A model generated the notes under the pieces. It had not been told where the DNA came from. It searched no databases and saw only the letters and a program-made list of their open reading frames with translations. From Malacoraja senta (Eukaryota), in contig CM075991.1 of the NCBI GenBank assembly GCA_038087875.1, forward strand, positions 9,922,001-9,986,000: a stretch of 64,000 bases of DNA, written 5' to 3'. The position numbers were made by a program, and so were the translations under genes. Positions 2,486-63,352 of the stretch are shown piece after piece (within the stretch, counting starts at the first letter, position 1; each line of letters begins with the position of its first letter).

Positions 2486-2760
2486 AAACAAGGAACTGTA
2501 GATGCTGGTTCACACCAAAGGACACAAACTGGTGGAGTTGACTGGACAGCTCGCAACAAAAACTAACTCAGCAGGTCAGGCAGCATCTCTGGAGAACATG
2601 GATAGCTTTTGGGTCGGGACCTTTCTTCAGACTGGTTATGGGGGTGGGGAGGGGGGCGGGGAGGGGAAGAATGATGGGAGCTTTCTCCCAGGGTCCCGAC
2701 CCGAAACTTCACCTCTCCATGTTCTGCAAAGATGCTGCCTGACCCTCTGGGTTACCCTCG
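2486..2760. mobile_element. Inverted pair of Penelope-like pLTR fragments
   Basis: Minus copy (aaggaactgtagatgctgg...cttcagact) followed by plus copy (gggtcccgacccgaaac...gatgctgcctgaccc). Confidence 0.7.
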
Positions 2761-2884
2761 CAGATTATGTCCTCTGGAGCATAGAATATTACAGCACAGA
2801 AACAGGCCCTTTGGCTCACAGTGTCTGTGCCGAACATGATGTCGAGATAATCCAATCTTATCTGCCTGCACGTGATCCATATCG

Positions 2885-3165
2885 CGGCACGGTGGCGCAG
2901 TGGTAGAGTTACAGCGCAAGGGACCCGCCTGTCTGTACGGAGTTCGTACGTTCTCCCCATGACCCGCGTGGGTTTTCTCCAGGATCTCTGGTTTCCTCCC
3001 ACACTCCAAAGACATACAGGTTTGTAGGTTAATTGGTATAATTGTAAATCATCCCCGGTGTTAGGATAGTGTTAGTGTGCGGGGATCGCTGGTCGGCGCG
3101 GACTCAGTGGGCCGAAGGGCCTGTTTCCGCGTTGTATCTCTAAACTAAACTAAAATAAACTAAAT
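2885..3165 (+). mobile_element. V-SINE (HE1-like)
   Basis: tRNA head TGGCGCAGTGG, V-domain, CR1-like tail tgggccgaagggcctgtttcc + (ctaaa)n. Confidence 0.85.
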
Positions 3166-3589
3166 ATCCTTCCAACCCCTGCATATTCAAGTGCTGATCT
3201 AACAGCTTCTTAAAGACCACTGTTATATCTGCCTCAACCTCCATCCCTGCACAAAACGTTCAAGGCACCCACATAACATTGAGGGAGGACATTCAGTCCA
3301 TCAAATTGATGCCGGCTATCCTGCAGTCCCATTCCCCACATGCCCCCGTAACCCCCATTCTCTCTCAGCTCCTCCTGCCCCCCTCTTCAAATCTGCTCCT
3401 ATCCTTCCACACTAAGGGGTAATTTACTGGGACCGGTTAACCCACCCGAACATCCAGGGGAAAGGATCAGCCCAGGATATCATGAGCTGTGTGATGCTAG
3501 CCTTGTTCCTGGCTGCTGGTCCACTGTGCCAGTTCCTTATGCCTCAACATTTGTTGCAACCCTCTGTGAATGTTCGAGCACTGGGTACA

Positions 3590-3790
3590 TTCAGGCTGAG
3601 ATCAATGGAACGGTAATGGGAATCGGAGGAAAGCAGGAAGGGTTCTTGATTAGTACGGGTGTTAGGGGTTATGGGGAGAAGGCAGGGGAATGAGGTTGAG
3701 AGCGACATATAGATCAGCCAGGATTGAATGGGGGAGTAGACTTGATGGGCTGAATGGCCTAATTCTGCTCCTACTCTTATGAATTTATGA
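3590..3790 (+). mobile_element. CR1 LINE 3' end
   Basis: ggggttatggggagaaggcagg...tgggctgaatggcctaattctgctcct tail. Confidence 0.7.
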
Positions 3791-3837
3791 AGGCAAGGTA
3801 GATTGGCTGAAGGGGCTACAAAGGCTAGTGGGGCCAG

Positions 3838-4405
3838 CACTCACACACATACACACTCACGCACACACACACACACACACACCCACACACACACACACTC
3901 ACACACGCATACACACTCGCACACACAAACACACACACTCACACACACACTCACACACACACACACACACACACCCACACACACACACGCATACACACTC
4001 GCACACACAAACACACACACACACACACTCACACACACACACATACACGCTCACACACACACACACACACACACACCCACACACACACTCACACACTCAC
4101 ACACACACTCACACAAACACTCACACACATACACACTCACACACACACACACACCCACACACTCACACACACCCACACACTCACACACGCATGCACTCAC
4201 ACACGCATACACACACACTCACACACTTACACACACACTCACACAAACACACACACATACACACTCACACACACACACACCCACACATACACACACACTC
4301 ACACACGCATACACTCACACACACCTACACACACACACACACTCACACACTTACACACACACTCACACAAACACACACACACTCACACACGTACACACAC
4401 ACGCA
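3838..4405. repeat. Degenerate (CA)n microsatellite
   Basis: Visible directly; explains the His/Thr and Cys/Val ORFs. Confidence 0.97.
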
Positions 4406-4744
4406 AGGCCGTCAGTGGTTTATTCTATAAAACTCTAAACCATTGAAAGAAGAGTAGTGGTGCTGAAGGGCCTATTCCTGCTCCTTTTCCAGTTATTCCC
4501 ACTCCTTCCATTCATGTTGAAATCCCTTGTTACTTGGAAAGGCAGAATGAGATGTGAAACAAAGAATGCATATTCAGAGTGGGATTGAGTGGATAATAAT
4601 TAGCCTTCCACTGAAACTAATTGTCCAGTTATGCTCCACAGAATGCAGTGGGTGGTTCAGTGGGGTGATTCAGAGAATCCCAATCACAACAGGTCATCTG
4701 GTCAGTTTGGGACATCGAGCACTTCGATGCTGTACAGAGAATGG

Positions 4745-5015
4745 TTTAAGTTTAGTTTAGCTTAGAGGTACAGCGCGGAACCAGGCCCTTTGGCCCACTG
4801 AGTCCACACCGACCAGCGATCCCCGCACATTAACACTATCCTACACCCACTATGGACAATTTACATTTATACCAAGCCAATTCATCTACAAACCTGTACG
4901 TCTTTGGAGTGTGGGAGGAAACCGAAGCTCTCAGAGAAATCCCACGCAGGTCACGGGGAGAACATACAAACTCCGTACAGACAGCATCCATAGTTGGGAT
5001 CGAACCCGGGTCTCT
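4745..5015 (-). mobile_element. V-SINE (HE1-like)
   Basis: Reverse complement of the SINE consensus, including B box (ggatcgaacc). Confidence 0.85.
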
Positions 5016-5131
5016 GGATGTTTCTGAATTTTTTCCAGTATTTGGACTGTCAGGGGAACAAAGCAAGGAATGTTTACCACTCTCTCCCCAAGACACTGCC
5101 CTTTAGCTGTCACTGAATTCTGGAGGGTTTA

Positions 5132-5800
5132 TACACACTCACACAAACACACACACTCACACATATACACACACACACTCGTACAAACACACACACTTGC
5201 ACACATAGACACACACTCACACATACACACACACTCACACAAACACACACACTCACACACACTCACACAAACACACACACTCACACACACTCACACAAAC
5301 ACACACACTCACACATATACACACACACACTCGTACAAACACACACACACTTGCACACATAGACACACACTCACACAAGCACACACACTCATGCACATAC
5401 ACACACTCACACAAACACACACACTCACACAAACACACACACTCATACACATACACACACATACTCACACACGTATACACACTCACACACACAAACTCAC
5501 ACACACACAAACACACACACTCACACACACACTCACACACATACACACTCACACTCACACACATACACTCACACAAACACACACCACACACACATATACT
5601 CACACAAACACACACCCACACAAACATACACTCACACAAACACACACCCACACACACATACACTCACACATGCATACACACACACACTCACACACTCACA
5701 CAAACACACACACATACACGCACACAAACACACACCCACACACACATACACTCACACACGCACACAAACACACACACTCACACACTCACACACACACGCA
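5132..5800. repeat. Degenerate (CA)n microsatellite
   Basis: Visible directly. Confidence 0.97.
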
Positions 5801-5814
5801 AGGCCTTCAGTAGT

Positions 5815-5910
5815 TATCCCTCAACCATTCAAAAAGATTATCTGGACAATTATCTTCTTCCTTTTAGTGGGATCTTGCTGTGTAGAAATGGTGCATTTAC
5901 CTTAGTAACA
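5815..5910 (+). mobile_element. Old Deu-domain SINE fragment (SacSINE1/AmnSINE1-like)
   Basis: atccctcaacc...agattatctgg...gtgggatcttgctgtg resembles the remembered Deu-domain consensus. Confidence 0.5.
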
Positions 5911-6865
5911 AATCATTGCTAAGTTCGATAGCAAACGTACTATCAAATATTAGTGCATTTTATATTATGTACTAATATTAGTAAATAGTATGACTGCTAT
6001 TATGCTATTTAATAATATAAAGATTATTATAAAAATAATATAAAATTAAAAAAATTACATTTTAATTTTTAAAATAACATGTATTGATTTTAAAATACAT
6101 TAAAAAAAAAATTAACAACATTTTAAAATGTATTTGTTAACAGATATTCGGTACCTATGCAGGTGAGGTGCTTTAGTGAGACACAATGCAATGTTTTATA
6201 CAGAAAGCCCTTTATTTGTCAATTGCTTGCCGGTTTTAAATAGGGATATTCGAGTGTTAAATAAATGAGTTTACACCTTATGTAAGTAATAGATTGCGGA
6301 AAATGGCACTTCATTCCTTTTAAATCCCTTCCAAGTTGCACAATCCTAACTCGGAAATATATCACCATTTCTTCCTGTAAATCCTGCATCTGCCCACGAT
6401 GAAATGAAATTATTTCTTTATCTCTTTTTTTATGAGTGTTGTGTCACCAAAGACTAGACATACAGTAGCTTGACTTTGAGGAGATTACAGAGGGCAGTAG
6501 CTCATGGCATGCATCTGGGACATACATGCAAGGCTTTCAAAGTTTTAAAAAGGGAATATTCTCCCATTGTGATTTTAATTTATTCCCTTTAATCCATCAT
6601 TTTAGTTTGCATTGTCCAATGCACTTCACCACATGGACTGCAGTGATTTCTAAAAGGCAGCTCACCCTTGTCTTCTCGAGGAGCAATAAGGGACAGGCAT
6701 TAAATGCTGGCCTTGCGAGCGGCATTTATGGATTGTGACTGAACGTATTAATGACTCCATTTGGCCCATCACATTTGCCCAGTACTAATTTCATTACTAA
6801 AAGGACAAAAGGAGCAGTTTAGGAGAATGATTTATTCTCTATACAGACATCCCACTCAGTAACAA

Positions 6866-7175
6866 GGCACAATGGCATTCTGGTAGAGGTGCTGCCTCAC
6901 AGTGCCAGAGACCCGGGTTCGATTCTGACTACGGCTGCTGTCTATGCGGAGTTTGTACGTTCCCCCTGTGACCGCGTGGGTTTTCTCCTGGTGCTCCGGT
7001 TTCCTCCCACACTCCAAAGACGTACAGGTTTGCAGGTTAATTGGCTTCTGTAAAATCGTAAATTGTCCCTGGTGTGTGTAGGGCAGTGTTAGTGTGGTCA
7101 GCACCAGCAACCCCCCACACTCGGTGGGTCGAAGGGCCTGTTTCCACGCTGTATCTCTAAAGTCTAGAGTCTAAA
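6866..7175 (+). mobile_element. V-SINE (HE1-like), full length
   Basis: tRNA head with GGTTCGATT B box, V-domain, CR1-like tail. Confidence 0.88.
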
Positions 7176-8228
7176 TACCATACCTTTAAAATCATTTTGC
7201 TAAACTGAAGTCAGTCTAGTAATTCGACTTGAATCTTAACATCAAGCTCCCACAAGTTTCTGGGGAATTGGTGGCACTGAGATGGTGCCAGTGAAGGTCA
7301 TTCAAATATCAGGCCACTACGAGCTCCGTTAGATAACACTCGGAGTTAGTATGGACGGACACACATCAACTGTAACTCACCTACTACCCTGTTACACATC
7401 TTTGTGCAGCAAGCAGGTGAAAAATTACCTCCTTCTCCTCTTAGTTGCATACCTGTGGCCAGAAACATTGTCACGGCTTGTCGGGGGGGGGGCGGAGGGA
7501 GAGAAGGGGAGGGTGAGAGTTTGTATACGTTAATACTAAAACTAGAGGGTTTGAGATGGCTGCATTATCTCCACAACTTCGAACATTCTGTTTGGTTCCT
7601 ATTTTTAGAGGAAGAAAAGGGTTTCAGAGTGAATTATTTCTAATTTCTCAGGTGAGTTCCTCATTTCTTTGATTCATCCAATCGATTCCAGTGGGGATTT
7701 CCCACATTAATATATTTGGGCAGTAGGTCAGCAAGATTTCAAGTGACTCCATGCAGGCAACAGTAAAAAAAAAAAAAATCTTATTGTAAATTTTAATAGG
7801 TAACATGTCACCAAAAAGTGGATACATGCAATGTGACTTTGGGGGTGGGGTGGGGGGGGGGGGGTAGTAGATTATGGGCATCTGGGTTTAAAAAAAAAAA
7901 TGAATATTCGCTCATTGTGATTTTAACTTATTCCATTCAATTCATCATCTTAGTTAGCTATTCTCAGTAGTAATTAAAGCTGCTTGGTATCGCTGTGCAT
8001 TACCCTAAGGCTCACAAGCTTTGTGTTGGTCTACCCAAAACCTCATAAAAGACATTAAAGCAAAGAGCTAATGTTGTACAAATCATTAGTCAGGGTCCAG
8101 ATGAAATAACAAGAGCAAAATAATAAAGTAATAATGGCCTGTCAGGACTTTGATATTGCAAGATGTTTTTTAGCTGACAAATTATAAATTTGAAGTTGAT
8201 GTACAGGTACTCCCTGGGCTAGAGTTAA

Positions 8229-8522
8229 CTTTAGTTTAATTTAGGGATACGGTGCAGAAACAGGCCCTTCGGCCCACTGAGTCCGCACCGACCAGCGACA
8301 CTACCCTACACACGCCAGAGGCAATTGTTACATTCGTACCAAGCCAATTAACCGGCAAACCTCCACGTCTTTGGAGCGTGGGAGGAAACCGGACACCCTG
8401 GAGAAAACCCACGCAGGTTACAGGGAGAACGTACAAATACCGTGCAGACAAGCACCTGTAGCCTGGATTGAACGCAGACTACGCTGGCGCTGTAAGGGAG
8501 TAGCTCTACCGCTGCCCCACTG
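8229..8522 (-). mobile_element. V-SINE (HE1-like)
   Basis: Reverse complement of the consensus. Confidence 0.85.
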
Positions 8523-8614
8523 AGCCGACTTATGTATAGCCCTTAAATACAAACGGGCATTTGGGATGGGTTTGGTAACTGCTGCTGGTTTCTTCCTCCA
8601 TGTGGGAACTCGGT

Positions 8615-9598
8615 TAGTGTCATAGAGTCATTCAGTGTGGAAACAGGCCCTTCGGCCCAGCTTGCCCACTCTGACCAACATACCCCATCTACACTAGTGG
8701 TGCATTGATAGTGTTGCTGCCTTACAGCGCCAGAGACCCGGGTTCGATCCTGACTACGGGTGCTTGTCTGTACGGAGCTTGTATGTTCTCCCCGTGACCT
8801 GCGAGGGCTTATTATGGGATCTCCAGTTTCCTCCCACACTCCAATGACGTACAGGTTTGTAGGTTAATTAGAAGCATAGAAAATAGGTGCAGGAGGAGGC
8901 CATTCGGCCCTTCGAGCCAGCACCGCTATTCATTGTGACCATGGCTGATCGTCCCCAATCAATAACCCGTGCCTTCTCTCCATATCCCTAGATTCCACTA
9001 GCCCCTAGAGCTCTATCTAACTCTCTTAAATCCATCCAGTGACTTGGCCTCCACTGCCCTCTGTGGCAGGGAATTCCACAAATACACAACTCTCTGGGTG
9101 AAAAACTTTTTTTCTCACCTCAGTCTTAAATGGCTTCCCCTTTATTCTAAGGGCTTGGTATCGTTGTAAACAGTCCCTAGTGTGTGTAGGATAGTGTTAC
9201 TGTGTGGGGATCACAGGTCGGCACGGACCTGGTGGGCCGAATGGCCTATTTCCACCCTGTATCTCCAAACTAAACTAAACACTAGTCCCACCTGCTGCTT
9301 TTGGCCCATATCCCTCTAAACCTATCCTTTCTGCCTACCTGTCTAAATGTTTCTTAAACCTTGGGATAGTGCCTGCCTCAACGACCTCCTCTGGCAGCTC
9401 GTTCCATACACCCACCACCCTTTGTGTAAAAAAATGTATCCTTCAAGTTCCTTTTGCATTTTTCTCCCTCAACTTAAACCTATATCTTCTGGTTCTCAAT
9501 TCCCCTACTCTGGGCAAAAGTTCATTTACCAGATCAATTCCTCTCAGGATGTTGTCCACCTAAGATCACCCCTCATTCTCCTGTGCTCCAATGAATAA
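8615..9598. mobile_element. Nest: CR1 (-) containing a V-SINE (+, 8697-9280), which contains a younger CR1 3' end (-, 8872-9150)
   Basis: Host CR1 breaks at acactagt (8691) and resumes at acactagtcccacc (9279); the SINE breaks at ttaatt and resumes at ggcttggtat. Confidence 0.8.
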
Positions 9599-9880
9599 CG
9601 TTTGTGGTAATATCTGAATGGTTGATGTAAACATCCTGGTTTAACTGCCTGTAGGTCTTTGTTGGCTGGGCAACCACATTTCTGACTTGCGAACAGTTCA
9701 GGTTCCAAACAGTTCTCAGGAGTGAAACTAAGTCCGAAACTGGGAAGGAAAGACACAAAAGGCTGGAGTAACTCAGCGGGTCAGGCAGCATCCCTGGAGA
9801 ACATGGATAGATGATGTTTTGGGTTCAGGACTCTTCTTCAGGCGAAGTTAAACTCCTTGTTATTACATAACCTGGGGTGG

Positions 9881-10136
9881 AACATAGAAACATAGACATA
9901 GAAACATAGAAAATAGGTGCAGGAGTAGGCCATTCGGCCCTTCGAGCCTGCACCGCCATTCAATATGATCATGGCTGATCATCCAACTCAGTATCGTGTA
10001 CCTGCCTTATCTCCATACCCTCTGATCCCTTTAGCCACAAGGGCCACATCTAACTCCCTCTTAAAAATAGCCAATGAACTGGCCTCAACTACCCTCTGTG
10101 GCAGAGAATTCCACCGATTCACCACTCTCTGTGTGA
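9881..10136 (-). mobile_element. Young CR1 3' end, (CTATGTTT)n tail
   Basis: Encodes FTQRVVNRWNSLPQRVVEASSLAIFKRELD, the CR1 ORF2 C-terminus. Confidence 0.9.
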
Positions 10137-10385
10137 ACAGCAATAGGGTTTGAAGATACTTATGTTGTTCAAAGCAAGATTCCAAACGCCAGTGAGATCA
10201 TTGAGAGACGAGGCCAAACACTCTCACAATCCATTATCCTCCTTTCAGAAGATCATAAGATCATGTGATAGGAGCAGAATTAGGCCATTCAGCCCATCAA
10301 GTCTAATCTGTCATTCAATCATGGCTAATCTATCTCCCTCCTACCCCATTCTTCTCCCCATAACCTCTGACATCCGGACTTTGTC

Positions 10386-10700
10386 TTTAGACTTTAGACT
10401 TTAGAGATACCACATGGAAACAGGCCCTTTGGCCCATCGAGTCAGCACTGACTATCGAACGCCCCATGCACTAGCACTATCCTACACACAACGGGACAAT
10501 TTACAATTTTACCAAAGCCAATTAGCCTACAAACCTGCACGCCTTTGGATTGTGGGGGAGAAACAGGGCACCCGGAGAAAACCCACGCGCTCACAGGGAG
10601 AACGTGCAAACTCCGTACAGGCAGTACCCGTCGTCAGGATCGATCCCGGGTCTCTGGCGCTGTAAGGCAGTGACTCTAGCGCTGCGCCACCGTGCCGCCA
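10386..10700 (-). mobile_element. V-SINE (HE1-like)
   Basis: Reverse-complement consensus with A and B boxes. Confidence 0.85.
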
Positions 10701-11294
10701 CATTCCCAGATGTTGTAGATGATGAGGTATCCCAACGTTTACAACATCTTCTCCGATTTGACTTTTCACATTATCACGCGAAAAAAAGGCTGCATCTTAG
10801 AATAAAGAGTTGTGGAGAGCTCCAGTATAGAGCCGGGCTCTTCAGCATACCGACCACCAACCATCCATCTACACTAATTCTACATTATTCCCCTTTATTT
10901 TTATTGTCTCCACTTTCTCAACAACTCCCTTCCGATTCTACCAATTGCCTACATCAGAGGCAATCTGCAGCGGCCAATTAACCTACCAATTCGCACTTTT
11001 CTTTGGATAAGGGAGGGCACCGGAGCACCTGGAGGAAACCCACGTGGTCACAGGGGGAACATGCAAACTCCACACTGACAGTGCCAGCGGTCGGGATCGA
11101 ACCGACCGTGAGGCAGCAGCTCTACCAGCTGCGCCACTGTGCTGCCCTCTTGTGGATTATGTGGCATTGCCCTGGGATGGCATTTGGATCCATAGTCTTC
11201 CAATAAAGGGTCAATGGCGTTAGTATTAAAATAATGTACAGCATGGAGAGGTGACAAGACTTGCTGAAAGGATATGAGAGAGAGAGATAGTAGA

Positions 11295-11520
11295 CTGTGG
11301 AATTTTCTGCCACAGAAAGTAGTTGAGGCCAGTTCATTGGCTATATTTAAGAGGGAGTTAGATGTGGCCCTTGTGGCCAAAGGGATCAGGGGGTATGGAG
11401 AGAAGGCAGGTACAGGATACTGAGTTGGATGATCAGCCATGATCATATTGAATGGCGGTGGAGGCTCGAAGGGCCGAATGGCCTACTCCAGCACCTACTT
11501 TCTATGTTTCTATGTTTCTA
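11295..11520 (+). mobile_element. Young CR1 3' end
   Basis: Same tail family as 9881. Confidence 0.88.
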
Positions 11521-12440
11521 GACACGAAATGCTGGAGTAACTCAGCGGGTCAGGAAGCATCTCCAGAGAACATGGATAGTCGACGTTTCTGATCCTTCAA
11601 CCCGACCCGAAACATCACCTGTCTATGTTCTCCAGATGGAGCCTGACATGCTGAGTTACTCCAGCATTTTTGTCTACCTTCGATTTTCCAGCATCTGCAG
11701 TTCCTTTTTAAACATGATAATAAAGAGAGTAAGTTTGAAAATCTGCTGTTGAATGAGTCGGTAATTAGGGATGAATGACATAGCACAAAGGCTACAGGAA
11801 CCAATAGGCTCAGACTGGACAAACCAGTTCTAGGCAGAAACAGTTCTGTACATAACCCAGGGACCCAGTGTAACTGACACAAAGGACTTGAGTAACTCAG
11901 CGGGTCAGGCAGCATCTCCGGAGAACATGGATGGGTGTCGTTTCTGGTCCTTCACCCTGACCCGAAACATCACCTGTCCATGTTCTCCACGGATGCTGCC
12001 TGGCACTCTGAGTTACTCCAGCACTTTGTGTCCTTTTTTTTCTCCTGTAAACCGACATCTGCAGTTCCTTGTAAAAGCAAAGAACTCCAGATGCTGGTTT
12101 ATACCAAAGATAGACACAGAGTGTTTGAGTAACTCACCCGGGCCAGGCAGCACCTCTGGGGGAAAAGGACGGGTGATGTGTTGGGTGGACCGAAGAAGGG
12201 TCCCAACTGAAAAAGCTGCCTCCCAGCTGAAAAAGCTGCCTCTCAGGTTCCTATTCAATCTTGGTCTCTCTCACCTGAAACCCATGTCCTTTTGTTTTTT
12301 GGAAGAAGGGTCTGAAGAAGGGTCTCGACCTGAAACGTCGCCTATTTCCTTCGCTCCATAGATGCTGCCTCACCTGCTGACTTTCTCCAGCATTTTTGTC
12401 TACCTTCGATTTTCCTACCTTCATCTGCAGTTCCTTCTTA
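11521..12440. mobile_element. Cluster of three inverted pairs of Penelope-like pLTRs
   Basis: -/+ pairs at ~11521-11710, 11876-12070 and 12080-12440. Confidence 0.75.
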
Positions 12441-12916
12441 AGCATCCTTTTGTTTTTGATTCCCACAACCTGAGTAAAAGACTCCGTGTCCTCGCCTTAT
12501 CCATTCCCCGCATGGTTTTACACACTTCTGTAAGATGTTTTGTCTAGGACTGTGAGAGGTTGCAAAAGAGCAGCAGTGGAATGAGTTGTGGGTGGCAGTG
12601 AGTTTCTCCAGACTCCCACCCCTGGGAACCTCTGGCAGTCTGCTTTCCCCCTCACCAGTAGACCTGCAGCCTGGAGCCTGTCCCTGGAACCCAATTTACA
12701 GCCTCTCTGCCCTGAGGCAGGAACTGGGCTAGGGGAGCAGAGGGTCAGGAAAGTTGGCTTCAGCTGTGAGAATAGTCCTCGAGTAAGCTCCCCCGACACT
12801 CTCCCCAAAAAGACCTTGCAATATTTCTGTTGGAAGGAACTGCAGATGCTGGGTTACACTGTGTTGGCGTGTGATGGTCTGGGCTGCGTCCGTTATTCTC
12901 TCTGTCCACTTCGATG

Positions 12917-13120
12917 GGCGGCACGGCGGTAGAGTTGCTGCCTCACAGCCTCACGGGTGCCGTCTGTAAGGAGTTTGTACGTTCTCCCCATGACCTGCGT
13001 GGGTTTTCTCCAGGATCTCCTGTTTCCTCCCACACTCCAAAGACGTACAGGCGTGTAAGTTAATTGGCTTGGTATAATTGTAAATTGTCCATAGTGTGTG
13101 TAGGATAGTGTTAGTGTGTT
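12917..13120 (+). mobile_element. V-SINE (HE1-like), partial
   Basis: V-domain match. Confidence 0.8.
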
Positions 13121-13214
13121 CGGAACTCCTAACTAAACTCCTTGCCCGATCAGAGCTAGACAATTTTGATACATATATTGATATAATACTCAAATAGGCT
13201 TGTAGGTAGGGTGT

Positions 13215-13520
13215 GTAGGAATGAACTGCACATACTGGTTTACACCAAAGATAGACACAAAATGCTGGAGAAACTCAGCATATCTGGATAGAAGGAATGT
13301 GTGACGTTTCGGGTTGAGACCCTGCTTCAGGGAGAGAGGAGAACTTCTTTAAAGTAGGCATACCTTGAGGAGCTTTCGCAGACGAAATGTGGAGGAAGGA
13401 ACTGCAGATGCTGGTTTACACTGAAGATAAGGACAAAATTCTGGAGTAACTCAGCGGGACAGGCAGCATCTCTGGAGAGAAGGAATGGGTGACGTTTCCG
13501 TTCAAGACCCTTCTTCAGCT
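13215..13520 (-). mobile_element. Tandem Penelope pLTR-spacer-pLTR
   Basis: Two hammerhead-motif units separated by a spacer homologous to 33655-33720. Confidence 0.7.
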
Positions 13521-13574
13521 ACTTCTCTCGTTCAATTAAAAATTCTTTCAAATCCTTCCATGGTCCTGACGACC

Positions 13575-13850
13575 CATGCTTGAATTATACGGAGAGGTTG
13601 GATAGCCTGAGACTTTATTCTTTGGAGCACAGGAGGCTAAGGGATGACTTTATTTAAATGTACAAGATCGCGAGGGACATGAATAAAGTGAGCATTTACC
13701 GTCTTTATCCCCGGGGAGAGGATTATAAAACTAGAGAGCGAAGGCGTAAGGTGAGAGGAGAGGGTATTCTGTATTTGGACTGAGCTGCCCGAGGAAGCTA
13801 TGGAAACGATAACAATTCTGACTTCGAAGGAACATTTTCGACAGACGTAT
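13575..13850 (+). mobile_element. Old CR1 fragment
   Basis: tattctttggagcacaggaggctaaggg... (degenerate YSLExRRLRGD region). Confidence 0.7.
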
Positions 13851-14089
13851 GTAAAAGAAAGAAGTAGAAACAAAGAACTGCAGATGCTGGTTTAAACTAA
13901 AGGTCGGCACAAAGTGCTGGAGTAAAGCTCCATGCCCGCCACCCAAAAAAAAATCAAGGTCAAGGTGACCTGCAACCTCCTACCACCTCCCACGCATATG
14001 TTGAAAACCTTCCTCGACTATGAAGAAAACCGGCTTCGACTAGACCTGCGACTAAAAAATGATCGAGTTTTAAAACGGCGACCTATTTT

Positions 14090-14289
14090 NNNNNNNNNNN
14101 NNNNNNNNNNNNNNNNNNNNNNNNNNNNNNNNNNNNNNNNNNNNNNNNNNNNNNNNNNNNNNNNNNNNNNNNNNNNNNNNNNNNNNNNNNNNNNNNNNNN
14201 NNNNNNNNNNNNNNNNNNNNNNNNNNNNNNNNNNNNNNNNNNNNNNNNNNNNNNNNNNNNNNNNNNNNNNNNNNNNNNNNNNNNNNNNN
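14090..14289. other. Assembly gap (200 N) inside the EBF2 last intron
   Basis: Run of N. Confidence 1.
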
Positions 14290-15660
14290 AACTCTACCGC
14301 TGAACTACTGTACCACCCTGAGCTTCACACAAACAGTACCACGGGTCAGGATTGAACTCATAAAACACTACAGCAACTTGCTCAGTGGCACTGCGGTGCT
14401 GCCTTGTGGCCAGCCTGCTGATAAAGATCTTATCACCATTTCCAAGCCCCTCTGATCAACAGGTCCCTTTCGAAACAGTCGGAAAAATAGCATTGTATAA
14501 AACCTAGAAACAAAATTAATTGGCATAAGTTAATTAAAACCAATATTAATTAAAATAAATATATTTTTTTAGTCTGAAGAAGGGTCCCATCCTGAAACGT
14601 CACCTACCCATTTTCTCCAGAGATGCTGCCTGACCCGCTGAGTTACTCCAGCATTTTGAGTCTCTCTTTGGCATCTGCAGTCCCTTTATGTAACATTGAA
14701 TTAAAATAAAGCTGGAATATGAAGACCTACATTCACTCACCCTTTTAATGGAAGTTGGTGGCACCATTCCAACGCTGGAGGTCAGTAGAAGACGCATCCA
14801 ACCTCCAGCTCCACCACCGGACTAGCGCTCAAGTCCTGGGATTACGGATAAAATCGGACAAGGGGTGGTCTTAGTGTACAAAATCATGAGAGGAATCTCT
14901 TCTATGCGCCTTCTATGTTCTGTTGTGCTGAAGCAAAGCAAGAATTTCATTGTCCTATCTGGGATACATGACAATAAACGAATCTTGAATCTTGAATCGA
15001 TCAGGTAAACGCTCAGTCTCTTTCCCAGAATAGGGGTATCGAGAACCAGAGGACAGACGTTTAAGGTGAAGGGTGTAGATCAGTGCCACTTTTGTAGTTA
15101 CGCCCACAGTAATCCCTGCTCGCCTGGTTCCTTTAGAATTCGAGAGACGTGCAAGTGTGAACTCGTACTTGCTATGTAGTTAATAACGTCTTTGGATCTT
15201 TATCATGGTGTAAGGGTCCAGTTATTATACGGACAACACTCAACAAAGGTGGGGGGAGAGATTTAATAGGAACCTGAAGGGTAATTTTTTTTACACAAAT
15301 TGTGGTGGGTGTATGGGACGAGCTGCTGGAGATGATAGTTGAGGCAGGTACTATAGCAACATGTGCAAAATGGTTGCCCCTCAGGTTCCTTTAAAATCGT
15401 TCCTCCCCCAACCTCAAACCTCTGTCCATTGGTTCTTGATTCCCCTACTCTAGGTAAAAGACTGTGCATTCACCCTGTCTATTCCCTTTATGATGTTATA
15501 CACCTCAATAAGATCATCCCTCAGCCTCCTGCGCTCCAAGGAATAAAACCCTAGCCTGCCCAACCTCCCCCTGCAGCTCAGGCCCTCAAGTCTTGGCTAC
15601 ATTCTCGTAAATGTTACACTGGGTCTTGAGACATCTCCTGCCAACTCTTGCATTCTGGAG

Positions 15661-16410
15661 TGCCGGGTGTTCTCCACATCTTCACATCTTCCCATCTCCC
15701 CCCATGTCTGCCTTCCGCAAAGACCGCTCCCTCCGTAACTCCCTTGTCAATTCTTCCCTTCCCTCCCGTACCACCCCCTCCCCCGGTACTTTCCCTTGCA
15801 ACCGCAAGAGATGCAACACTTGTCCATTCACCTCCCCCCTCCACTCCATTCAAGGACCCAAGCAGTCGTTCCAGGTGCGACAGAGGTTCACCTGCATCTC
15901 CTCCAACCTCATCTATTGCATTCGCTGCTCTAGATGCCAGCTGATCTACATCGGTGAGACCAAGCGGAGGCTTGGCGATCGTCTCGCCGAACACCTCCGG
16001 TCGGTCCGCAATAACCAACCTGAACTCCCGGTGGCTCAGCACTTCAACCCCCCCTCCCATTCCGTATCTGACCTCTCTGTCCTGGGTCTCCTCCATGGCC
16101 ACAGCGAGCAACACCGTAAATTGGAGGAAATGCACCTCATATTCCGCTTGGGCAGTCTACATCCTGGGGGTTTGAACATTGAATTCTCCCAATTCTGCTA
16201 GCCTTTGCTGTCCCCTCCCCTTCATGAGCCATCTGGTTGTCTCCTCCCCTCCCCCAGCCCTCGGGCTCCTCCTCCGCCTTTTTCCTTTTTTCCTTTCTTC
16301 TCCCCACCCCCTATTAGTCTGAAGAAGGGTTTCGGCCCGAAACGTTACCTATTTCCTTCGCTCCATAGATGCTGCTGCACCCGCTGAGTTTCTCCAGCAT
16401 TTTTGTGTAC
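15661..16410 (+). mobile_element. 5'-truncated Penelope-like element: GIY-YIG endonuclease C-terminus + pLTR with hammerhead motif
   Basis: Open frame C-x4-C-x2-C...NLIYCIRCSRCQLIYIGETKRRLGDRLAEH...VAQHF...GLN (stop at 16201); 14-bp TSD cttgcattctggag at 15647-15660 and 16411-16424. Confidence 0.92.
16318..16352 (+). ncRNA. Minimal type I hammerhead ribozyme motif (representative copy)
   Basis: CTGAAGA-A-GGGT(TTCG)GCCC-GAA-ACGT-T: conserved core boxes, 4-bp stem II, palindromic stem III. Stem I is weak. Confidence 0.7.
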
Positions 16411-16597
16411 CTTGCATTCTGGAGCCCTGCTTTGAGAATTTTCAGCGTACTGGTGTCTGCGAGATCCAACTCCAGTGTAAGCAAAGGAAAGTGAGGAGAA
16501 GGAAGGAGGATATGGAACATGTCAAACCACCCGACTGGCTTATTTTAGTCATATATCGATATGTATCAACATTGTCTAGCTCTGATCTGCCAGTGAG

Positions 16598-17160: not shown

Positions 17161-17166
17161 CTCACA

Positions 17167-17990: not shown

Positions 17991-18084
17991 AACTCACTTG
18001 TCTCCAAGGTTTGCCATCTATATAGAATGGATGAATCGATATATGTGCACGCTTGTTTATGCTGTCCCCCTCTTGTCTTTCTAG

Positions 18085-18116
18085 CCATGACTGGACTGGT
18101 AGTCCCTCCGATGTGA
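18085..18116 (+). CDS. EBF2: EBF2 terminal coding exon
   Basis: tcttgtctttctag acceptor. G|CC ATG ACT GGA CTG GTA GTC CCT CCG ATG TGA = AMTGLVVPPM*, the EBF2 C-terminus, in phase with the donor at 941. Confidence 0.93.
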
Positions 18117-49960: not shown

Positions 49961-50499
49961 ATCCGGTTTGCACTAAATATCATTTGGACTCTGCAAGCTA
50001 AGCTGACGATGGCATGCATAATGCTACGTTGACAACTGCCTGGGCATACAGAGTCCAAATGATATTTAGTTGCTGCCCATGGCATGCTTTGTCGAGTGCA
50101 GCTGCTCACAGCTAGAATTCCAAGACATAAGGCACTCCTCAGTCACACCTACAGTCTTCAAAATGAGAAACGACAGGGAACCTGAGGGAATATGCTGCCT
50201 TCAGACAGGAAACTTGGAAGTTCCTTTGGTCAAGCTTCATCTGGAGAAAACAGGTAACAGCAGTTGATACGTTAAGAGCTTTAGTCAACACCTACCGTTT
50301 GGTCGCTTTGATGTTAACTCGAGGGACGGAGGATGAAACAATTAAATGTACTTCTCGTAAATCATTATCCCTTGACCAGAGGTCGGTTAGATAATAGAAG
50401 CAGGATTGATCCGTATTACCAGAGAAACTCTGATAATCCACCACCCCATTCTTCGGAGATCCCGCTGGTGTTGCATCTGGTTTTTCTGGGCATTGTCTC

Positions 50500-51193: not shown

Positions 51194-51948
51194 AGATACA
51201 TAGATACATAGAAAATAGGTGCAGGAGTAGGCCATTTGGCCCTTCGAGCCTGCACCGCCATTCAATATGATCATGGCTGATCATCCAACTCAGTATCCCG
51301 TACCTGCCTTCTCTCCATACCCCCTGATCCCTTTAGCCACAAGGGCCACATCTAACTCCCTCTTAAATATAGCCAATGAACTGGCCTCAACTACCCTCTG
51401 GCAGAGAGTTCCAGAGATTCACCACTCTCTGTGTGAAAAAGTTTTTTCTCATCTCGGTCTTAAAGGATTTCCCCCGTATCCTTAAGCTGTGGCCCCTTGT
51501 CCTGGACTTCCCCAACATCGGGAACAATCTTCCTGCATCTAGCCTGTCCAACCCCATAAGAATTTTGTACGTTTCTATAAGATCCCCTCTCAATCTCCTA
51601 AATTCTAGCGAGTATAAGCCAAGTCTATCCAGTCTTTCTTCATATGAAAGTCCTGACATCCCAGGAATCAGTCTGGTGAACCTTCTCTGCACTCCCTCTA
51701 TGGCTATAATGTCCTTCCTCAGATTTGGAGACCAAAACTGTACGCAATACTCCAGGTTTGGTCTCACCAAGACCCTGTACAACTGCAGTAGAACCTCCCT
51801 GTTCCTATACTCAAATCCTTTTGCTATGAAAGCTAACATACCATTCGCTTTCTTCACTGCCTGCTGCACCTGCATGCCTACTTTCAATGACTGGTGTACC
51901 ATGACACCCAGGTCTCGCTGCATCTCCCCTTTTCCTAATCGGCCACCA
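51194..51948 (-). mobile_element. Young CR1
   Basis: QRDLGVMVHQSLKVGMQVQQAVKKANGMLAFI... ORF2. Confidence 0.93.
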
Positions 51949-53114
51949 TGCTGGTTTATAACGAAGATAGACACAAAATGCAGGAGTAACTCAGCAGGGC
52001 AGGCAGCATCTCTGGAGAAAACGAATAGGCGACGTTTCAGGTCAAAGGACAAAGGACATTTATTGTCACAAACACCAACCGGTGTAGTGGAATTTGAGTC
52101 GAGACCTTTCTTCAGACTGATAGTGAAGGTGGAAGTGGATTCGTAGTTTTTACTCTGGCGCCAGGGGTTATGGGGATTAGGCAGGAAAATGGGATTAGGA
52201 GGCAGAGATCAGCCATAATTGAATGGGGGAGTGGTTTAGATGGGCCGAATGGCCTAATTCTACTCCTATAACTTGTGAACTCGTGTGTCCACTCAAGATA
52301 CAGCACACTTTTGCTTCAGAAGCAGTTATCCCTCTATTCCTGGTCTACCTTCATTCCATTAGAGAGACGCAGAAGGAGGAGAGGATATAATGTCTTATTT
52401 CCGGAGGGTTGCGAATCTACCCCATTTAACTGGAGAGTTGGAGTCGTTAAACGGATTCGAGGTACTTGGATGTGTTTGAACTACAATGAAGTCAAAGATG
52501 ATGGGGAACGGGTGGGAAAATGGAGCTGAGGGCAAGATCTAATTGAATGGTGAAGCAGGTGTGGGAATCTCATGGTCTACTCCTTCTCCCGCTTTGTATG
52601 ATCTTAGCCAATGTTCCTTTTGGCTGTGGTAGCATTTCATTCCGACCTCTAATTTCAGGTAGTCCTTGCTTTCTCCTCCCCTTCTCAGCCCACTGGCTCC
52701 ACCTCTTCCTTTCTTCTTCCCCCCCCACCCCCCCTGTCTATTATCTCATCCGAAGCTTCATGGAAAGATGTGGCTATTTGACTGAGGTGCTGATGATAAG
52801 GTAACACAGATGGAATTGAACAATGATATTAAAGGGAAAAGAGGGGAGTAAAAGAAATCCGTCTGATGGGAAATTGTCTGGAGATTAATGATCAGTCAAA
52901 TCAAATCCATTTGATTACATTGTCAATGTTCAGTTTTGTCCGACAACCTTCAGCATTTATTACCAGACAGATTAAAAGACACTTGAACAGATGCAATACA
53001 CAGATATGAAAGGTTTAGAGGAATCGGGGCCAAACCGCGGGCAGGTGGGACTAGTGTAGATGGAGCATCTTGGTCAGCATGGGCTAGTTGGGCCGAAGGG
53101 CCTGTTTTCATGCT

Positions 53115-59372: not shown

Positions 59373-60317
59373 TGTTTGACAAGTTAAGAGTCAAGAGTTC
59401 TTGAATGTCATACAGCATGTACCATCAATGGAGCGATGAAATCCTTACTTGCTACAGCTTAACACGCCTGTAAATCCAATCATACTCACACTATATAATA
59501 ATAAAAGATACAATAAATTAATAACCATAATAATACAAAAAAAATATCCATAGTCCACTCAAAAGCACAGTCCAAAGAACATCATTAGTGCTGAGGTTAA
59601 CTTTGTGTGGTGTTCAAGAGCCTGATAGTTGCTGGGAAGAAGCTGGCCTTGAACCTGGTGGTCACAGTTTCCTGATGGTCTTAGCATATAGGGAGCATGG
59701 CCAGGATGATAAGGGCCTTTGATGAGGGGAAGGTGCCCAGTCTCACCAATAAGGCGAAGGCATCAGATCGGGACAGATCCTATGTATTCGGCACCATGTA
59801 TTTTTATCTACAGTGTATATGTGGCCATCAGCGTATATATCTCGGACTGATTTTATTCGGATTGTTTAGAACTCGGGGAGAAAAGTGCTGAGATAGCAGT
59901 GGGAATTCTGAGCGCGGTTAGCTACCGGGGCACAAGGGGCCCTTGGGTGCTTCCAGTTTCGAGTATAACACCGCAGGCACCTGTGAAAGATGAGCGGCAC
60001 ACACGTTTGTTGGTGTTTATCATCAATATCTCTCTGCGGCTGTAAACATCAGTGCATTCATCATCCTGCGTTCCCGGCACTAATGTCCCGTTAAATTGAT
60101 GGGGAAAAGGGGACGAAGCGAAGGAACAGGTATGAACATACAAATTCTCTCACTGCCATTTTTTACCAGCGAGCAGGAATCTGCTGCCCTGCGCATTTCT
60201 TCCCCAGCTCCCCGGCCTGACTCGACTGTGCGTCCCGATGGCCACTGACACGTGAGGCCGGTCAGTGTGCAGGCACCCAAACCCATTCTGCCCACACCCG
60301 TAGCCCGATCAACATTA

Positions 60318-60410
60318 CTGAAGAAGGGTTTCGGCCCGAAACGTTGCCTATTTCCTTCGCTCCATAGATGCTGCTGCACCCGCTGAGTTTCTCCAGCATT
60401 TTTGTGTACC
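60318..60410 (+). mobile_element. Solo young pLTR starting at the hammerhead core
   Basis: Flanked by ttactgaa (60315-60322, 60411-60418). Confidence 0.85.
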
Positions 60411-60894
60411 TTACTGAACAAGGAGTTCCAGCACTGCTTAGTTTTATTATCCAAGAGTCTGCAAATAAGTGATATACAGAAGGTACACTAGGTGTCCATC
60501 TGCATAGAGCATAAAATGGTAGCAGGCAGGATGGCAATAAGAGGGCAAATTCATGAGTGATAGGAGCAGAATTAGGCCATTCGGCCCATCAAGCCTACAC
60601 TACCATTCAATCATGGCTGATCGATCTCTCCCTCCTAACCCCATTCTCCTGCCTTCTCCCCATAACCCCTGACACCGGTACTAATCAAGAATCTATCAAT
60701 CTATCTCTGCCTTAAAAATATCCATTGACTTGGCCTCCACAGTCTATCGATTAGTACGACATATGACATATTGACCTTTATTGCAAAGGGTTTGGAGTTT
60801 AGATACAGGCAAATTGTGTTCCATTTGTGCGGGATGTTAGTGAGGCCTTACTTGGAGTACCGTTTAGGTCATCTCACCTAACAAAGGATATGGT

Positions 60895-61095
60895 AGATAG
60901 GCACAAAATGCCGGAGTAACTCAACGGGTCAAGCAGCATCTCTGGAGAAAAGGAATAGGTGATGTTTCGGGTTGGAACCCTTCTTCAGACAAACCTTCGT
61001 TCTTAAAACCCTCGTTCCGACCTGAAACATCACCTATTTCTTTTCTCCATTTGTGTACATCTTTGGTATAAACCAGCATCTGCAGTTCCTTCGTA
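60895..61095. mobile_element. Inverted pLTR pair
   Basis: -/+ arrangement. Confidence 0.75.
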
Positions 61096-61574
61096 CACAA
61101 AGGACACTGTATGTTCTCCTGGTGACCCTGTAACACCACCTGGGTGCCCTGCTTTCCTCCCTATCTCCCCGTTTCCAATACGAGCTGGTGAGTTAATCAG
61201 TTGCTATAAAGTCATAAGGACTTGGAGTAGAATTAGGCCATTCGGCCCATCAAGTCTACTCCGCCATTCAATGATGGCTGATCTTTCAGTGTAGGATCTC
61301 AGGAATCAAAGGGAGGTAGATGGGCATCTATGAGGGAGAATGGTTCAGCATTTTATGCATCATCTGACCGGTGGTGTAGCTGAATAAGATTGCCAATTAC
61401 CCATGCATGGGGTAGTTAGGATTTCCAGGCCCAAGGCCATGTCTAACTGGATTAAGGCCACCCAAACTATTCCCATGTACAATCATTGCACTGATCAGCA
61501 TTAATTCACCGGCACCTCTTTGAGATAGGGATGCAGGGCACCCAGGTAACACACGGAAAGGACGTAGCCAGGAC

Positions 61575-62960
61575 TCGAGGGTCTGACTATAGAGAGAGGT
61601 TGAGCAGGCTAAGTTTCTGTCCCATGGAGCGCAGGAGGATGAGGGGTGATCTTACAGAGGTGTACAAAATCACGAGAGGAATAGATCGGGTAAACGCACA
61701 GAGTCTCTTGCTCAGAGTAGGGGAATCAAGAACCAGAGGGCATAGGTTTAAGGTGAGGGGAGGGGGAGAAAAGATTTAATAGGAACCTGAGATCATAAGA
61801 TCAGAAGTGATAGGAGTAGAATTTGGCCATTTGGCACCAAGTCTACTCCGCCATTCAATCATGGCTGATCTATCTCTCCCTCCTAACCCCATTCACCTGC
61901 CTTCACCCCATAACCTCTGACACCCGGTAACTTTATTTACACAAAGGGTGGTGGGTGTATGGAACGAGCTGCCAGAGGAGGTAGTTGAGGTAGGTGCTAT
62001 CGCAATCTTCGAGAAACATTTAGACAGGTACACGGATAGGACAGGTTTAGAGGGATTATGGGCCAAACGCAGGCAGATGGGACTAGTGTAGATGCGACAT
62101 GTTGGCCGGTGTGGGCAAGTTGTGCCAAAGGCCCTGTTTCCATGCAGTAAGACTCTATAACTCTGACGGGGAGAATGAGCAGCACAATGGCACAGCTGGT
62201 AAAGCCACTGCCTCACAGCACCAGAGACACAGGTTCGATCCTGACCACAGGTGCCGTATGTGTGGAGTTTGCACGTTCTCTTGGTGACTGCATGGATTTC
62301 CTCCGCATGCTCTAATTTCCTCCTGCGTCCCAAAGACTTGTAGGTTTTTAGGTTAATTGGTCTCTGTACAATCTTTACACCCTATACATAAAGCCCTCAC
62401 CCACTGAGCTAACATGAACCCAGGCTTCAAATGAGTAAAGAGAAATGCGTGGTCCATTTCTGTCTTGTGTTAATGAAGTACAAAGTGAGGGGGGCTTTGG
62501 TGGTCCTTCTGATTGTAAAAGGAGTTACTGCGACTATATATATGCACTGTAGTCTTTTCCTCATTAATAAAGTTCAACGGGCAAAATTACACATGCTTTA
62601 TTCTGTCTCTGGAGTTCTGTTAAATGAAGTGTGACTGTCTATCAGATTGTTAAAAGGATGTACAAAATCGTGACAGGAATAGATTGGGTGAATGCAGAGT
62701 CTCTTGCCCAGTGTCGGGGAATCAAGAACCAGAGGACAAGGGTTTAAGTTGATTTAATAGAAACCTGAGGGGTGATTTTTTTTTAATACAAAGGGTGGAT
62801 CAAGACACCAAAGGAGGTAGTTGAGGCAGGTGCTATCGCCAACATTTAGACAAGGATAGTTTTTGAGGGATATGGGCCAAGCACAGGCAGGTGGGACTAT
62901 AGATGGGACATGTTGGTCGGAATGGGCAAATTGGGCCTGTTTCCATGCTGTATGACTATG
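61575..62960 (+). mobile_element. Older CR1 fragments (61575-62163, 62655-62960) and a V-SINE (62185-62370)
   Basis: YRERLSRL...ERRRMRGDLTEVYKI; SINE consensus. Confidence 0.8.
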
Positions 62961-63119
62961 GCTCGAGGACTTTAGCATATTTGACTTGTTTTCTTGGGCC
63001 ATTATTCACTTGCATACATTGGGGATGTGTTTACCAGAGATAAATATGCAGAGTTGAAAAGACCAGAGTATTTCCTTGGCAGAAGATCATTCTTGATTGA
63101 AAGGACAGCAAGGACCTCA

Positions 63120-63352
63120 TTCTACAGATGCTGCCTGTCCCGCTGAGCATTTTGTGTCCATCAATATGTAGAATGACATGGAGAAAAGGGATAGGTGATG
63201 TTTCGGGTCGAGACCCTTCTTCAGGATAGGAGACTTCTCAACCCAAAATGTCACCTATCCTTTTTCTCCAGAGATGCTGCCTGTCCCGTTGAGTTACTCC
63301 AGCATTTTCTGTCTATCTTCGGTGTAAACCAGCATCTGCAGTTCCTTCCTAT
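63120..63352. mobile_element. pLTR fragments including an inverted pair
   Basis: Consensus matches. Confidence 0.75.

What the first reader, a model, noticed from the sequence alone, without database searches (positions are those of the whole stretch)
2486..63352. Dispersed hammerhead-motif pLTR family at SINE-like density
Seen: roughly 35-40 copies (counted by eye) of a ~100-130 bp unit. It matches the 3' end of the GIY-YIG Penelope element at 15661-16410, and many copies keep CTGAAGA-A-stemII-GAA-ACGT-H. Stem II covaries between subfamilies (GGGT-TTCG-GCCC versus GGGT-CTCG-ACCC). Established: Penelope-like elements carry minimal type I hammerheads with a palindromic stem III thought to act as dimers. 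Inference: a prolific ribozyme-bearing non-autonomous family. Sense copies lie inside the EBF2 pre-mRNA (e.g. 12312, 14574, 16319). Caveat: stem I is only ~2-4 bp.
Basis: partly seen in the sequence, partly recalled or inferred. Interest (0 to 1): 0.75.

Follow-up and report, generated by a model that had tools for sequence, protein, structure and literature searches.

The report
Penelope retrotransposon stubs carrying minimal hammerheads
These dense short repeats are end-pieces of several ordinary Penelope-like jumping-gene subfamilies that carry an already described tiny self-cutting RNA motif, and because most begin just in front of that motif rather than at its cut site, they likely record copying that ran off the front end of the element's RNA rather than a separate ribozyme-driven element.

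Summary
The family is real: 50 segments in 33 loci cover 7% of the window, with no hits in the reversed window. It is the 3' pseudo-LTR of a Neptune/Nematis-type Penelope-like element (PLE). There are four subfamilies, three of them still attached to a GIY-YIG remnant here. The motif is the published minimal type I hammerhead, but only 8 of 50 segments keep the whole descriptor. The claimed stem II covariation is a one-sided U-A/U-G swap; two-sided changes appear only against a distant PLE. Cores in the copies are no better conserved than other shared positions.

Ends are discrete. The 3' ends fall at two sites (body end, and end of an optional tail). The 5' ends fall mostly within a few bases of the core start, in the window and in public reads, including tail-to-head junctions. 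Few start at the cut site, and no RNA ends pile up there. Best reading: short cDNAs primed internally near the RNA's front that ran off its 5' end (inferred). A separate non-autonomous family is not excluded but is not needed. Sense copies do lie in the last EBF2 intron; no effect is shown. New member of a known kind.

The parts
15683..16412 (+). 5'-truncated PLE, subfamily A: RT-EN linker with CX4CxxC, GIY-YIG EN with CCHH, pyrimidine-rich 3' UTR, hammerhead, body; no tail
16317..16348 (+). Minimal type I hammerhead: stem I 16317-18/16347-48, core C3 at 16319, stem II 16327-16338, predicted cut 16346|16347; main 5' edge of short copies at A16316/G16317
17158..17990 (-). EN-linked PLE fragment, subfamily B1, interrupted by a LINE-like repeat (about 17355-17845); complete motif at 17258
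21450..21941 (+). EN-linked PLE fragment, subfamily B2; core mutated (U4 to G)
2489..2772 (.). Head-to-head pair, subfamily C; minus arm has pyrimidine-rich UTR-like sequence upstream; 9-bp flanking direct repeat
9747..9844 (-). Short copy, subfamily C, degenerate core
11519..11708 (.). Head-to-head pair lacking the 5' core
11876..12187 (.). Head-to-head pair plus a further minus copy
12306..12438 (+). Short copy with tail, 13-bp TSD, complete motif (G-U at 10.1-11.1), sense in EBF2 intron
13219..13521 (-). Tandem of two B2 copies; the upstream one reads about 65 nt past the tail into the presumed element interior
13872..13925 (-). 3' fragment with tail
14570..14687 (+). Short copy with 12-bp flanking direct repeat; stem II broken; sense in EBF2 intron
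16952..17055 (-). Short copy, complete motif
19776..20043 (.). Head-to-head pair; the minus arm starts near the predicted cut site
21263..21370 (-). Short copy, core mutated
26343..26628 (.). One insertion with a 14-bp TSD (1 mismatch): minus-strand array of three 44-45-nt hammerhead-only repeats plus a partial one, joined head-to-head to a plus copy with tail
27741..27805 (-). 3' fragment with tail
28201..28330 (-). Short copy with tail; stem II mismatch
29573..29795 (.). Tandem plus head-to-head arms, old subfamily
30172..30342 (.). Head-to-head pair folded at stem II
31309..31388 (+). Very diverged copy (E 3.5e-4)
33445..33861 (.). One composite insertion with a direct repeat of about 13 bp: inverted arm, copy with tail, read-through, UTR piece, second copy
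34296..34583 (-). Two separate partial copies (34296-34382, 34543-34583)
35809..36365 (.). Two separate partial copies (35809-35887 minus, 36289-36365 plus)
36540..36772 (.). Head-to-head pair; minus arm has complete motif
37200..37291 (+). Partial copy abutting a U1 snRNA copy
49864..49976 (+). Copy with complete motif and about 15 nt of upstream element sequence
51948..52120 (-). Copy split by an unrelated insert
60316..60436 (+). Young subfamily A short copy (98% to 16319); starts at the core, so no stem I
60890..61092 (.). Head-to-head pair, 8-bp flanking repeat
63100..63348 (.). Plus fragment and head-to-head pair with tail
759..18116 (+). Host context: last two coding exons of EBF2/COE2 (759-941, 18085-18116) and the intron between

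Best explanation
These roughly 95-135-bp repeats are the terminal pseudo-LTR pieces of four subfamilies of a Neptune/Nematis-type Penelope-like retrotransposon carrying the known minimal type I hammerhead motif, and most short copies were likely made when the element's reverse transcriptase primed at one of two internal sites near the front of its RNA and ran off an RNA 5' end that likely lies about three bases before the hammerhead core. Shown: identity with the 3' end of EN-coding fragments, two discrete 3' ends, a discrete 5' edge, TSD-flanked single insertions, head-to-head and tandem structures, and decay of the core like other shared positions. Inferred: that the 5' edge is the transcription start; that priming is internal, as for the anole PAc element; that longer copies come from priming in the downstream pLTR of longer transcripts; and that the ribozyme is kept by selection on source elements while inserted copies are passengers, mostly unable to cleave.
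For: Element identity: CX4CxxC and CCHH motifs; closest proteins are shark and ray RT-EN ORFs. Each of four groups has an EN- or UTR-linked member (support mostly weak, 2 of 31 branches starred). 5' edge: 16 of 23 core-bearing segments have no upstream element match beyond a few bases. Depth steps up at 16316-16320 in 4 of 4 runs, with the largest 5' loose ends at 16316/16317 and low agreement (0.32-0.36). In DNA contigs the 8 skip-joints shown all join the tail end (33648-33659) to 33761-33767; 24 of their 32 contigs join at the A or G just before the core. Three goes-back joints shown restart at 16316 in three organisms. 3' ends: loose ends at 16412/16413 and 33656/33657; depth falls about 18-fold past the tail. 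A distant PLE (45-55% aa identity) has the same layout, with TATAAA exactly 37 nt before the core in 33 of 47 copies and 3' ends at 87-100 (17 of 40) and 147-161 (15 of 40). In PAc, RT starts at two internal sites that define the tail, and uncut RNA is the main template (PMC11167929). Core versus other shared columns in the same 18 copies: 6/179 versus 10/378 mismatches, p=0.6; CpG positions of the core decay (G12 6/34, stem III G 8/33). Direct repeats of 8 bp or more flank 5 of 33 loci against 1.4% in mismatched pairs.
Against: No transcription start was mapped: neither lay listed a pile-up of RNA ends at the proposed start (table 6). This element has no TATA box, only an Inr-like TCAGT (Inr consensus recalled), and the relative's TATA predicts a start about 6-8 nt before the core, not 3. 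The same boundary is also a polypyrimidine-plus-YAG 3' splice site, as in D. virilis Penelope. The depth step is inflated because other subfamilies' EN DNA is only about 77% identical and falls under the 85% cut-off; summed contig depth is not copy number. Upstream references for the subfamilies are few, so some of the 16 may be misclassed (34580 is pyrimidine-rich; 12312 starts in a 12-nt slip duplication). A first, cruder test found cores more conserved than the body (11/219 versus 226/1699, p=2e-4); it is confounded by subfamily differences and alignment ascertainment. Most joints were hidden (146 and 151 rows). One displayed joint type (16407 to 16348 with G between, two DNA runs) could be a tandem restarting at the cut site. 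No RT-coding or full-length copy is in the window.
Confidence: 0.6

Rival explanations
1. One reading: the short unit is itself a prolific non-autonomous element, transcribed from an internal promoter and mobilised in trans by the PLE protein.
For: Short copies outnumber EN-linked ones (3 of 33 loci). They have fixed ends and TSDs. A unit that starts at the transcription start and holds the priming sites could be a complete template; D. virilis Penelope has an internal promoter (PMC2377424 passages).
Against: Short copies do not form their own clade; they sit with EN- or UTR-linked members of four groups. 93% and 98% of RNA reads run on into unlike sequence and both directions are about equal over the unit, as expected for passengers in host transcripts (library strandedness unknown). 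No tRNA-like head was found by Rfam.
Confidence: 0.2
2. Ordinary 5' truncation of copies primed at the element's 3' end, with the RT stalling or falling off where the hammerhead meets the C-rich tract, or with splicing at the polypyrimidine/YAG site defining the boundary.
For: PLE insertions are commonly 5'-truncated (PMC8557442 passages). About half the segments start at scattered positions inside the unit. The boundary looks like a 3' splice site, and the D. virilis intron ends at helix I.
Against: Junctions usually keep the A or G of the AG, which splicing would remove. No shared upstream exon is seen among short copies. No joint from the donor-like site at 33688 is among the 15 joints shown. 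The edge is sharp to a few bases.
Confidence: 0.15
3. Retrozyme-like: the unit spreads through hammerhead-cut, circularised RNA.
For: One hammerhead-only tandem array (26343-26510) and similar goes-back joints in three organisms. Two-sided changes between this element and a distant PLE keep stems I and II. A possible restart at the cut site (16407 to 16348+G).
Against: Only 2 of 50 segments start within a few bases of the cut site, against 24 at profile positions 2-8, 6 of which continue into the UTR. No RNA end pile-up at the cut (poly(A) library from a relative, weak test). 8 of 50 have a full motif. Subfamily A is predicted to misfold (stem II probability 0.01), and the array's double-hammerhead fold for units 1 and 3 scores -2.8 against -40.3 kcal/mol for the best fold (linker left unpaired).
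Confidence: 0.05

Closest known systems
Minimal hammerheads (min-HHR) in pLTRs of metazoan PLEs, including fish Xena, Poseidon and Neptune (Cervera and De la Pena 2014, PMC4209133; parts 1-2 of 4 read)
   Same: Type I core, extra base between 9 and 10.1, G10.1-C11.1, palindromic 15.2-16.2 with no loop 3; mostly single dispersed motifs attributed to truncated PLEs; pairs on opposite strands; thousands per genome.
   Different: Helix I is 2 bp (as in D. virilis) rather than 4-5 bp, and helix II is 4 bp. Cartilaginous fish are not named in the parts read; supplements were not read.
EN+ PLEs of Neptune/Nematis type (Craig et al. 2021, PMC8557442; passages read)
   Same: C-terminal GIY-YIG with CCHH, CX2-5CxxC linker, pLTR with hammerhead, 30-40-bp optional tail, partial tandems, inverted 5'-truncated copy.
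   Different: No RT-based tree was built, so Neptune versus Nematis is untested. The sharp 5' edge of short copies is not described in the passages read.
PAc (Poseidon from Anolis carolinensis; Frangieh et al. 2024, PMC11167929; parts 1-2 of 4 read)
   Same: Two 3' ends bounding a tail downstream of the hammerhead; no RNA-seq reads ending at the cut site.
   Different: In PAc the ORF starts inside the hammerhead; here a candidate ATG lies about 35 nt past the tail (unconfirmed). Different clade by the linker motif.
Non-LTR retrozymes (Cervera and de la Pena 2020, PMC7229834, passages; Li et al. 2026, bioRxiv 10.64898/2026.07.22.740005, parts 1-3 of 5)
   Same: Derived from PLE pLTRs; one tandem array here has a hammerhead motif in each repeat.
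   Different: Here copies are dispersed monomers and inverted pairs with minimal rather than canonical hammerheads. The array period (44-45 nt) is below the reported 51-972 bp. No circular RNA evidence.

Membership tests
EN+ Penelope-like element, Neptune/Nematis type | C-terminal GIY-YIG EN with CCHH motif | tested here: met
   PF01541; invariant C74, C77, H96, H112 among 18 aligned proteins
EN+ Penelope-like element, Neptune/Nematis type | CX2-5CxxC linker between RT and EN | tested here: met
   C31-x4-C36-x2-C39; definition
EN+ Penelope-like element, Neptune/Nematis type | RT in the same ORF upstream of EN | tested here: inconclusive
   Window copies are truncated before RT; homologues at 52-63% identity carry weak RVT_1 matches below cut-off
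EN+ Penelope-like element, Neptune/Nematis type | Optional 30-40-bp tail giving two 3' ends | tested here: met
   Ends at profile 96-111 (16 of 50) and 128-132 (22 of 50); loose ends at 16412/13 and 33656/57
EN+ Penelope-like element, Neptune/Nematis type | Partial tandems and inverted 5'-truncated copy | tested here: met
   11 of 33 loci head-to-head, 2 tail-to-tail; tandems at 13219, 26343, 29573, 33445
EN+ Penelope-like element, Neptune/Nematis type | Placement by RT phylogeny | not tested
   No RT sequence in the window
Minimal type I hammerhead of PLEs | Core CUGANGA...GAA, A15.1-U16.1, H17, extra base before 10.1, G10.1-C11.1 | tested here: met
   14 of 23 core-spanning segments keep core and palindrome; 8 of 50 complete
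Minimal type I hammerhead of PLEs | Palindromic stem III without loop | tested here: met
   ACGT in 16 of 20 copies with letters and in the distant PLE
Minimal type I hammerhead of PLEs | Helix I of 4-5 bp | tested here: not met
   2 bp here (third pair absent in 10 of 10 window rows); a 2-bp variant is published for D. virilis
Minimal type I hammerhead of PLEs | Compensatory changes in helices | tested here: inconclusive
   None among 21 window copies; two two-sided changes against one distant lineage, i.e. two events
Minimal type I hammerhead of PLEs | Self-cleavage as dimer or with protein | not testable with these tools
   Needs a cleavage assay; Rfam has no match
Non-LTR retrozyme | Tandem repeats with a complete hammerhead in consecutive units | tested here: not met
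   1 of 33 loci is such an array, and its middle unit has an insertion in stem III
Non-LTR retrozyme | Abundant monomeric linear and circular RNA | not testable with these tools
   Only a poly(A) raw-read run from a relative was available
SINE (Pol III, tRNA/7SL/5S-derived head) | Head derived from a Pol III RNA gene | tested here: not met
   No such Rfam match; the unit is colinear with the PLE end throughout; A/B boxes were not scanned

The most novel reading that the evidence does not exclude
The thousands of short copies are integrated strong-stop-like cDNAs. The PLE reverse transcriptase primes 95 or 135 nt from the capped 5' end of its own RNA, runs off, and either integrates or jumps to a second template, so ray and shark genomes hold a base-resolution fossil record of PLE priming, run-off and template jumping, made from RNA the hammerhead had not cut. 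Among the 25 of 42 papers listed for 'Penelope', 'strong-stop', 'hammerhead' none contained 'strong-stop'; searches showed no paper on this element in cartilaginous fish. Repbase and Dfam could not be checked.
Probability: 0.5. Interest if true: 0.5.

Novelty: new member of a known kind. Interest (0 to 1): 0.3.

Why it matters
The kind is published: dispersed minimal hammerheads from truncated PLEs occur by the thousand in fish, coelacanth and frog genomes. What is useful is the end geometry. How PLEs prime, finish and form tandems and inverted copies is still poorly understood, and so is the role of their hammerhead. A dense family with a sharp 5' edge, two 3' ends and junctions linking them gives precise predictions for an in vitro TPRT assay, and suggests that uncut RNA is the template in vivo. 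An effect on EBF2 is possible in principle (two complete sense motifs 4 kb apart in one intron could pair), but nothing here shows it, and strand counts in the intron (6 sense, 10 antisense) are too few to show selection.

Tried and rejected
No whole genome is held, so no genome-wide census or covariance model was built. Rfam found no hammerhead at gathering score over the window or at E up to 10 over 16200-17400. No RNA holder was listed for the window's own organism; that is not evidence on expression. The ESM Atlas gave no usable hit for the EBF2 exon, and the PDB search gave only a chance match. A first motif scan for EBF DNA-binding exons found nothing because those exons lie outside the window. 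Folding gave no significant z-scores for monomers or the array (-0.83 to +0.87). A bacterial promoter scan on a relative's locus was irrelevant and empty. I considered that the ORF is spliced out or back-spliced between the donor-like site at 33688 and the acceptor-like site before the core; it is not among the 15 of 166 joints shown, so it is unsupported, not excluded. The apparent excess conservation of cores vanished with matched copies and columns. The uniform-null p-value for 5' clustering (1e-11) used hand-entered counts and an arbitrary range, so I do not rely on it. An extra cap-derived G, reported by an earlier agent, was not evident in window copies; one joint row (16362 to 16316 with G) fits it. 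Lunse et al. (PMC5785218) was not held; I know it only through a review's passage. Supplements of PMC4209133 were not read and those of the bioRxiv preprint are closed; either may list chondrichthyan examples.


Full report
Observation. A profile built from 14 window copies finds 53 segments at E<0.01 and none in the reversed window. At E<1e-3 there are 50 segments in 33 loci, covering 7.3% of the window; 11 loci are head-to-head pairs. The unit is the 3' end of a GIY-YIG fragment, and two more EN-linked fragments from other subfamilies are present. A hammerhead descriptor gives 13 hits against 0 in 100 of 100 shuffles; Rfam does not recognise the motif. The host gene is EBF2/COE2, with best matches in rays. 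Its last intron is 942-18084, so the three cited copies are intronic and sense. The mRNA 3' end is unknown (AATAAA at 18546, 21729 and 23246).

What the element is. The EN has the CCHH motif and a CX4CxxC linker, which mark Neptune and Nematis PLEs (PMC8557442 passages). Of 34 homologues at E<=1e-20, the top six are shark and ray proteins. The units fall into four groups (A, B1, B2, C), each with an EN-linked or UTR-linked member; three A copies are 95-98% identical to the EN-linked one (34 rows, 2 of 31 branches strongly supported). Direct repeats of 8 bp or more flank 5 of 33 loci, against 1.4% of mismatched pairs. A sixth, of about 13 bp, spans two loci that my clustering split. The optional tail, partial tandems and inverted truncated copies are all published PLE traits.

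The ribozyme motif. It has every core feature of the published minimal PLE hammerhead (PMC4209133), with a 4-bp stem II and a 2-bp stem I. 23 of 50 segments span the core, 14 keep core and palindrome, and 8 keep the whole descriptor. Aligning 10 of these with 10 window copies shows two two-sided changes, one in stem I and one in stem II. These are two events between two lineages: they support a structure kept in source elements, but not statistical covariation. In inserted copies the core is no better kept than other shared columns (6/179 versus 10/378) and its CpG positions decay. A cruder comparison gave the opposite result but is confounded. Folding predicts that subfamily A prefers a hairpin that hides GAAA.

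Ends. 3' ends are bimodal in the window and in reads; depth falls about 18-fold past the tail into a multi-copy interior that includes a candidate ATG. The distant PLE also has two 3' ends. This matches the two internal priming sites shown for anole PAc (PMC11167929). For 5' ends, 16 of 23 core-bearing segments lack upstream element sequence beyond a few bases, and only 2 of 50 start near the cut site. In four public runs (one raw RNA run and three contig sets from three organisms) depth steps up at 16316-16320, and the largest 5' loose ends are at 16316/16317 with heterogeneous flanks. The step is inflated by subfamily divergence. The junction data avoid that problem: all 8 skip-joints shown join the tail end to 33761-33767, and 24 of 32 contigs join at the A or G before the core; three goes-back joints restart at 16316. 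Most joints were not displayed (146 and 151 rows). In the distant PLE a TATAAA lies 37 nt before the core in 33 of 47 copies, which would put a start within about 8 nt of the core (spacing recalled). Neither lay listed a pile-up of RNA starts or ends; RNA reads are about equal in both directions over the unit, and 93-98% run on into unlike sequence.

Mechanism. The simplest account is that the RNA begins just before the hammerhead. The RT primes about 95 or 135 nt downstream and runs off, giving the short unit; priming in a downstream pLTR gives longer truncated copies; template jumps give tandems that restart at the same base. The templates contained the intact hammerhead, so they were uncut. 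The start site and priming are inferred, not shown (confidence 0.6; identity as PLE ends about 0.95). Rivals: self-propagating short units (0.2), stalling or splicing at the polypyrimidine boundary (0.15), a cut-and-circularise cycle (0.05). I noted the idea of a start-site edge before seeing earlier agents' similar readings on other shark and skate windows; those are not independent support.

Novelty. Dispersed minimal hammerheads from truncated PLEs, and pLTR-derived retrozymes in a chondrichthyan, are in print. My five searches listed no paper on this element or on run-off copies, but repeat databases and supplements were not available. Verdict: new member of a known kind, interest 0.3; about 0.5 if the run-off model holds.

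Noticed in passing
window 37284-37860: U1 snRNA copy (Rfam RF00003, 124 bits) directly abutting a PLE stub on its left and followed, after a short A-rich run, by a LINE-like 3' fragment; it looks like a U1-LINE chimeric retrocopy.
   Followed up: partly
window 26343-26628: Array of 44-45-nt hammerhead-only repeats inside one TSD-flanked insertion; similar 38-nt goes-back joints (16353 to 16316) occur in contigs of three organisms.
   Followed up: partly
window 13331-13395 (-) and 33657-33725 (+): Two independent copies read past the tail into the same interior sequence, with a donor-like site overlapping an ATG, and both stop at the same CT-rich point; possibly the ORF start and a third 3' end.
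   Followed up: partly
window 16327-16343: In subfamily A the stem II region forms a DNA palindrome; loose ends at 16329 in run X14 match the inverted unit, suggesting fold-back inversion at this hairpin.
   Followed up: partly
window 26512-26632: A stretch of the tail is complementary to a stretch of the body and closes a stem around the first 3' end (z -0.83, not significant).
   Followed up: partly
table 5c, 16407 to 16348: Joint with a G between, in two DNA runs; it could be a tandem restarting exactly at the hammerhead cut site, or a microhomology artefact.
   Followed up: no
P0004: The predicted C-terminus of this zebra shark protein appears to run through the PLE 3' UTR into a translated hammerhead-like stretch (my reading of the protein; DNA not seen).
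   Followed up: no
P0002, P0005, P0006: Host-gene-named shark and ray proteins (receptor-transporting protein 3-like, divergent protein kinase domain 1C, mucin-2) contain this PLE EN sequence; gene-model artefacts or exonisation.
   Followed up: no
window 37292-49863: About 12.5 kb with no unit at E<1e-3, despite many other repeats.
   Followed up: no
window 942-18084 and 52640-52734: The last EBF2 intron is 17 kb and repeat-filled; a further B1 PLE UTR fragment without a hammerhead lies at 52640-52734.
   Followed up: no
window-wide (e.g. 44353-44988, 51387-52208, 57856-58590): Many near-identical LINE-like 3' fragments and a second dense SINE-like family (D4-D10, D20); about half the window is self-repeated. 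Family names were not determined.
   Followed up: no
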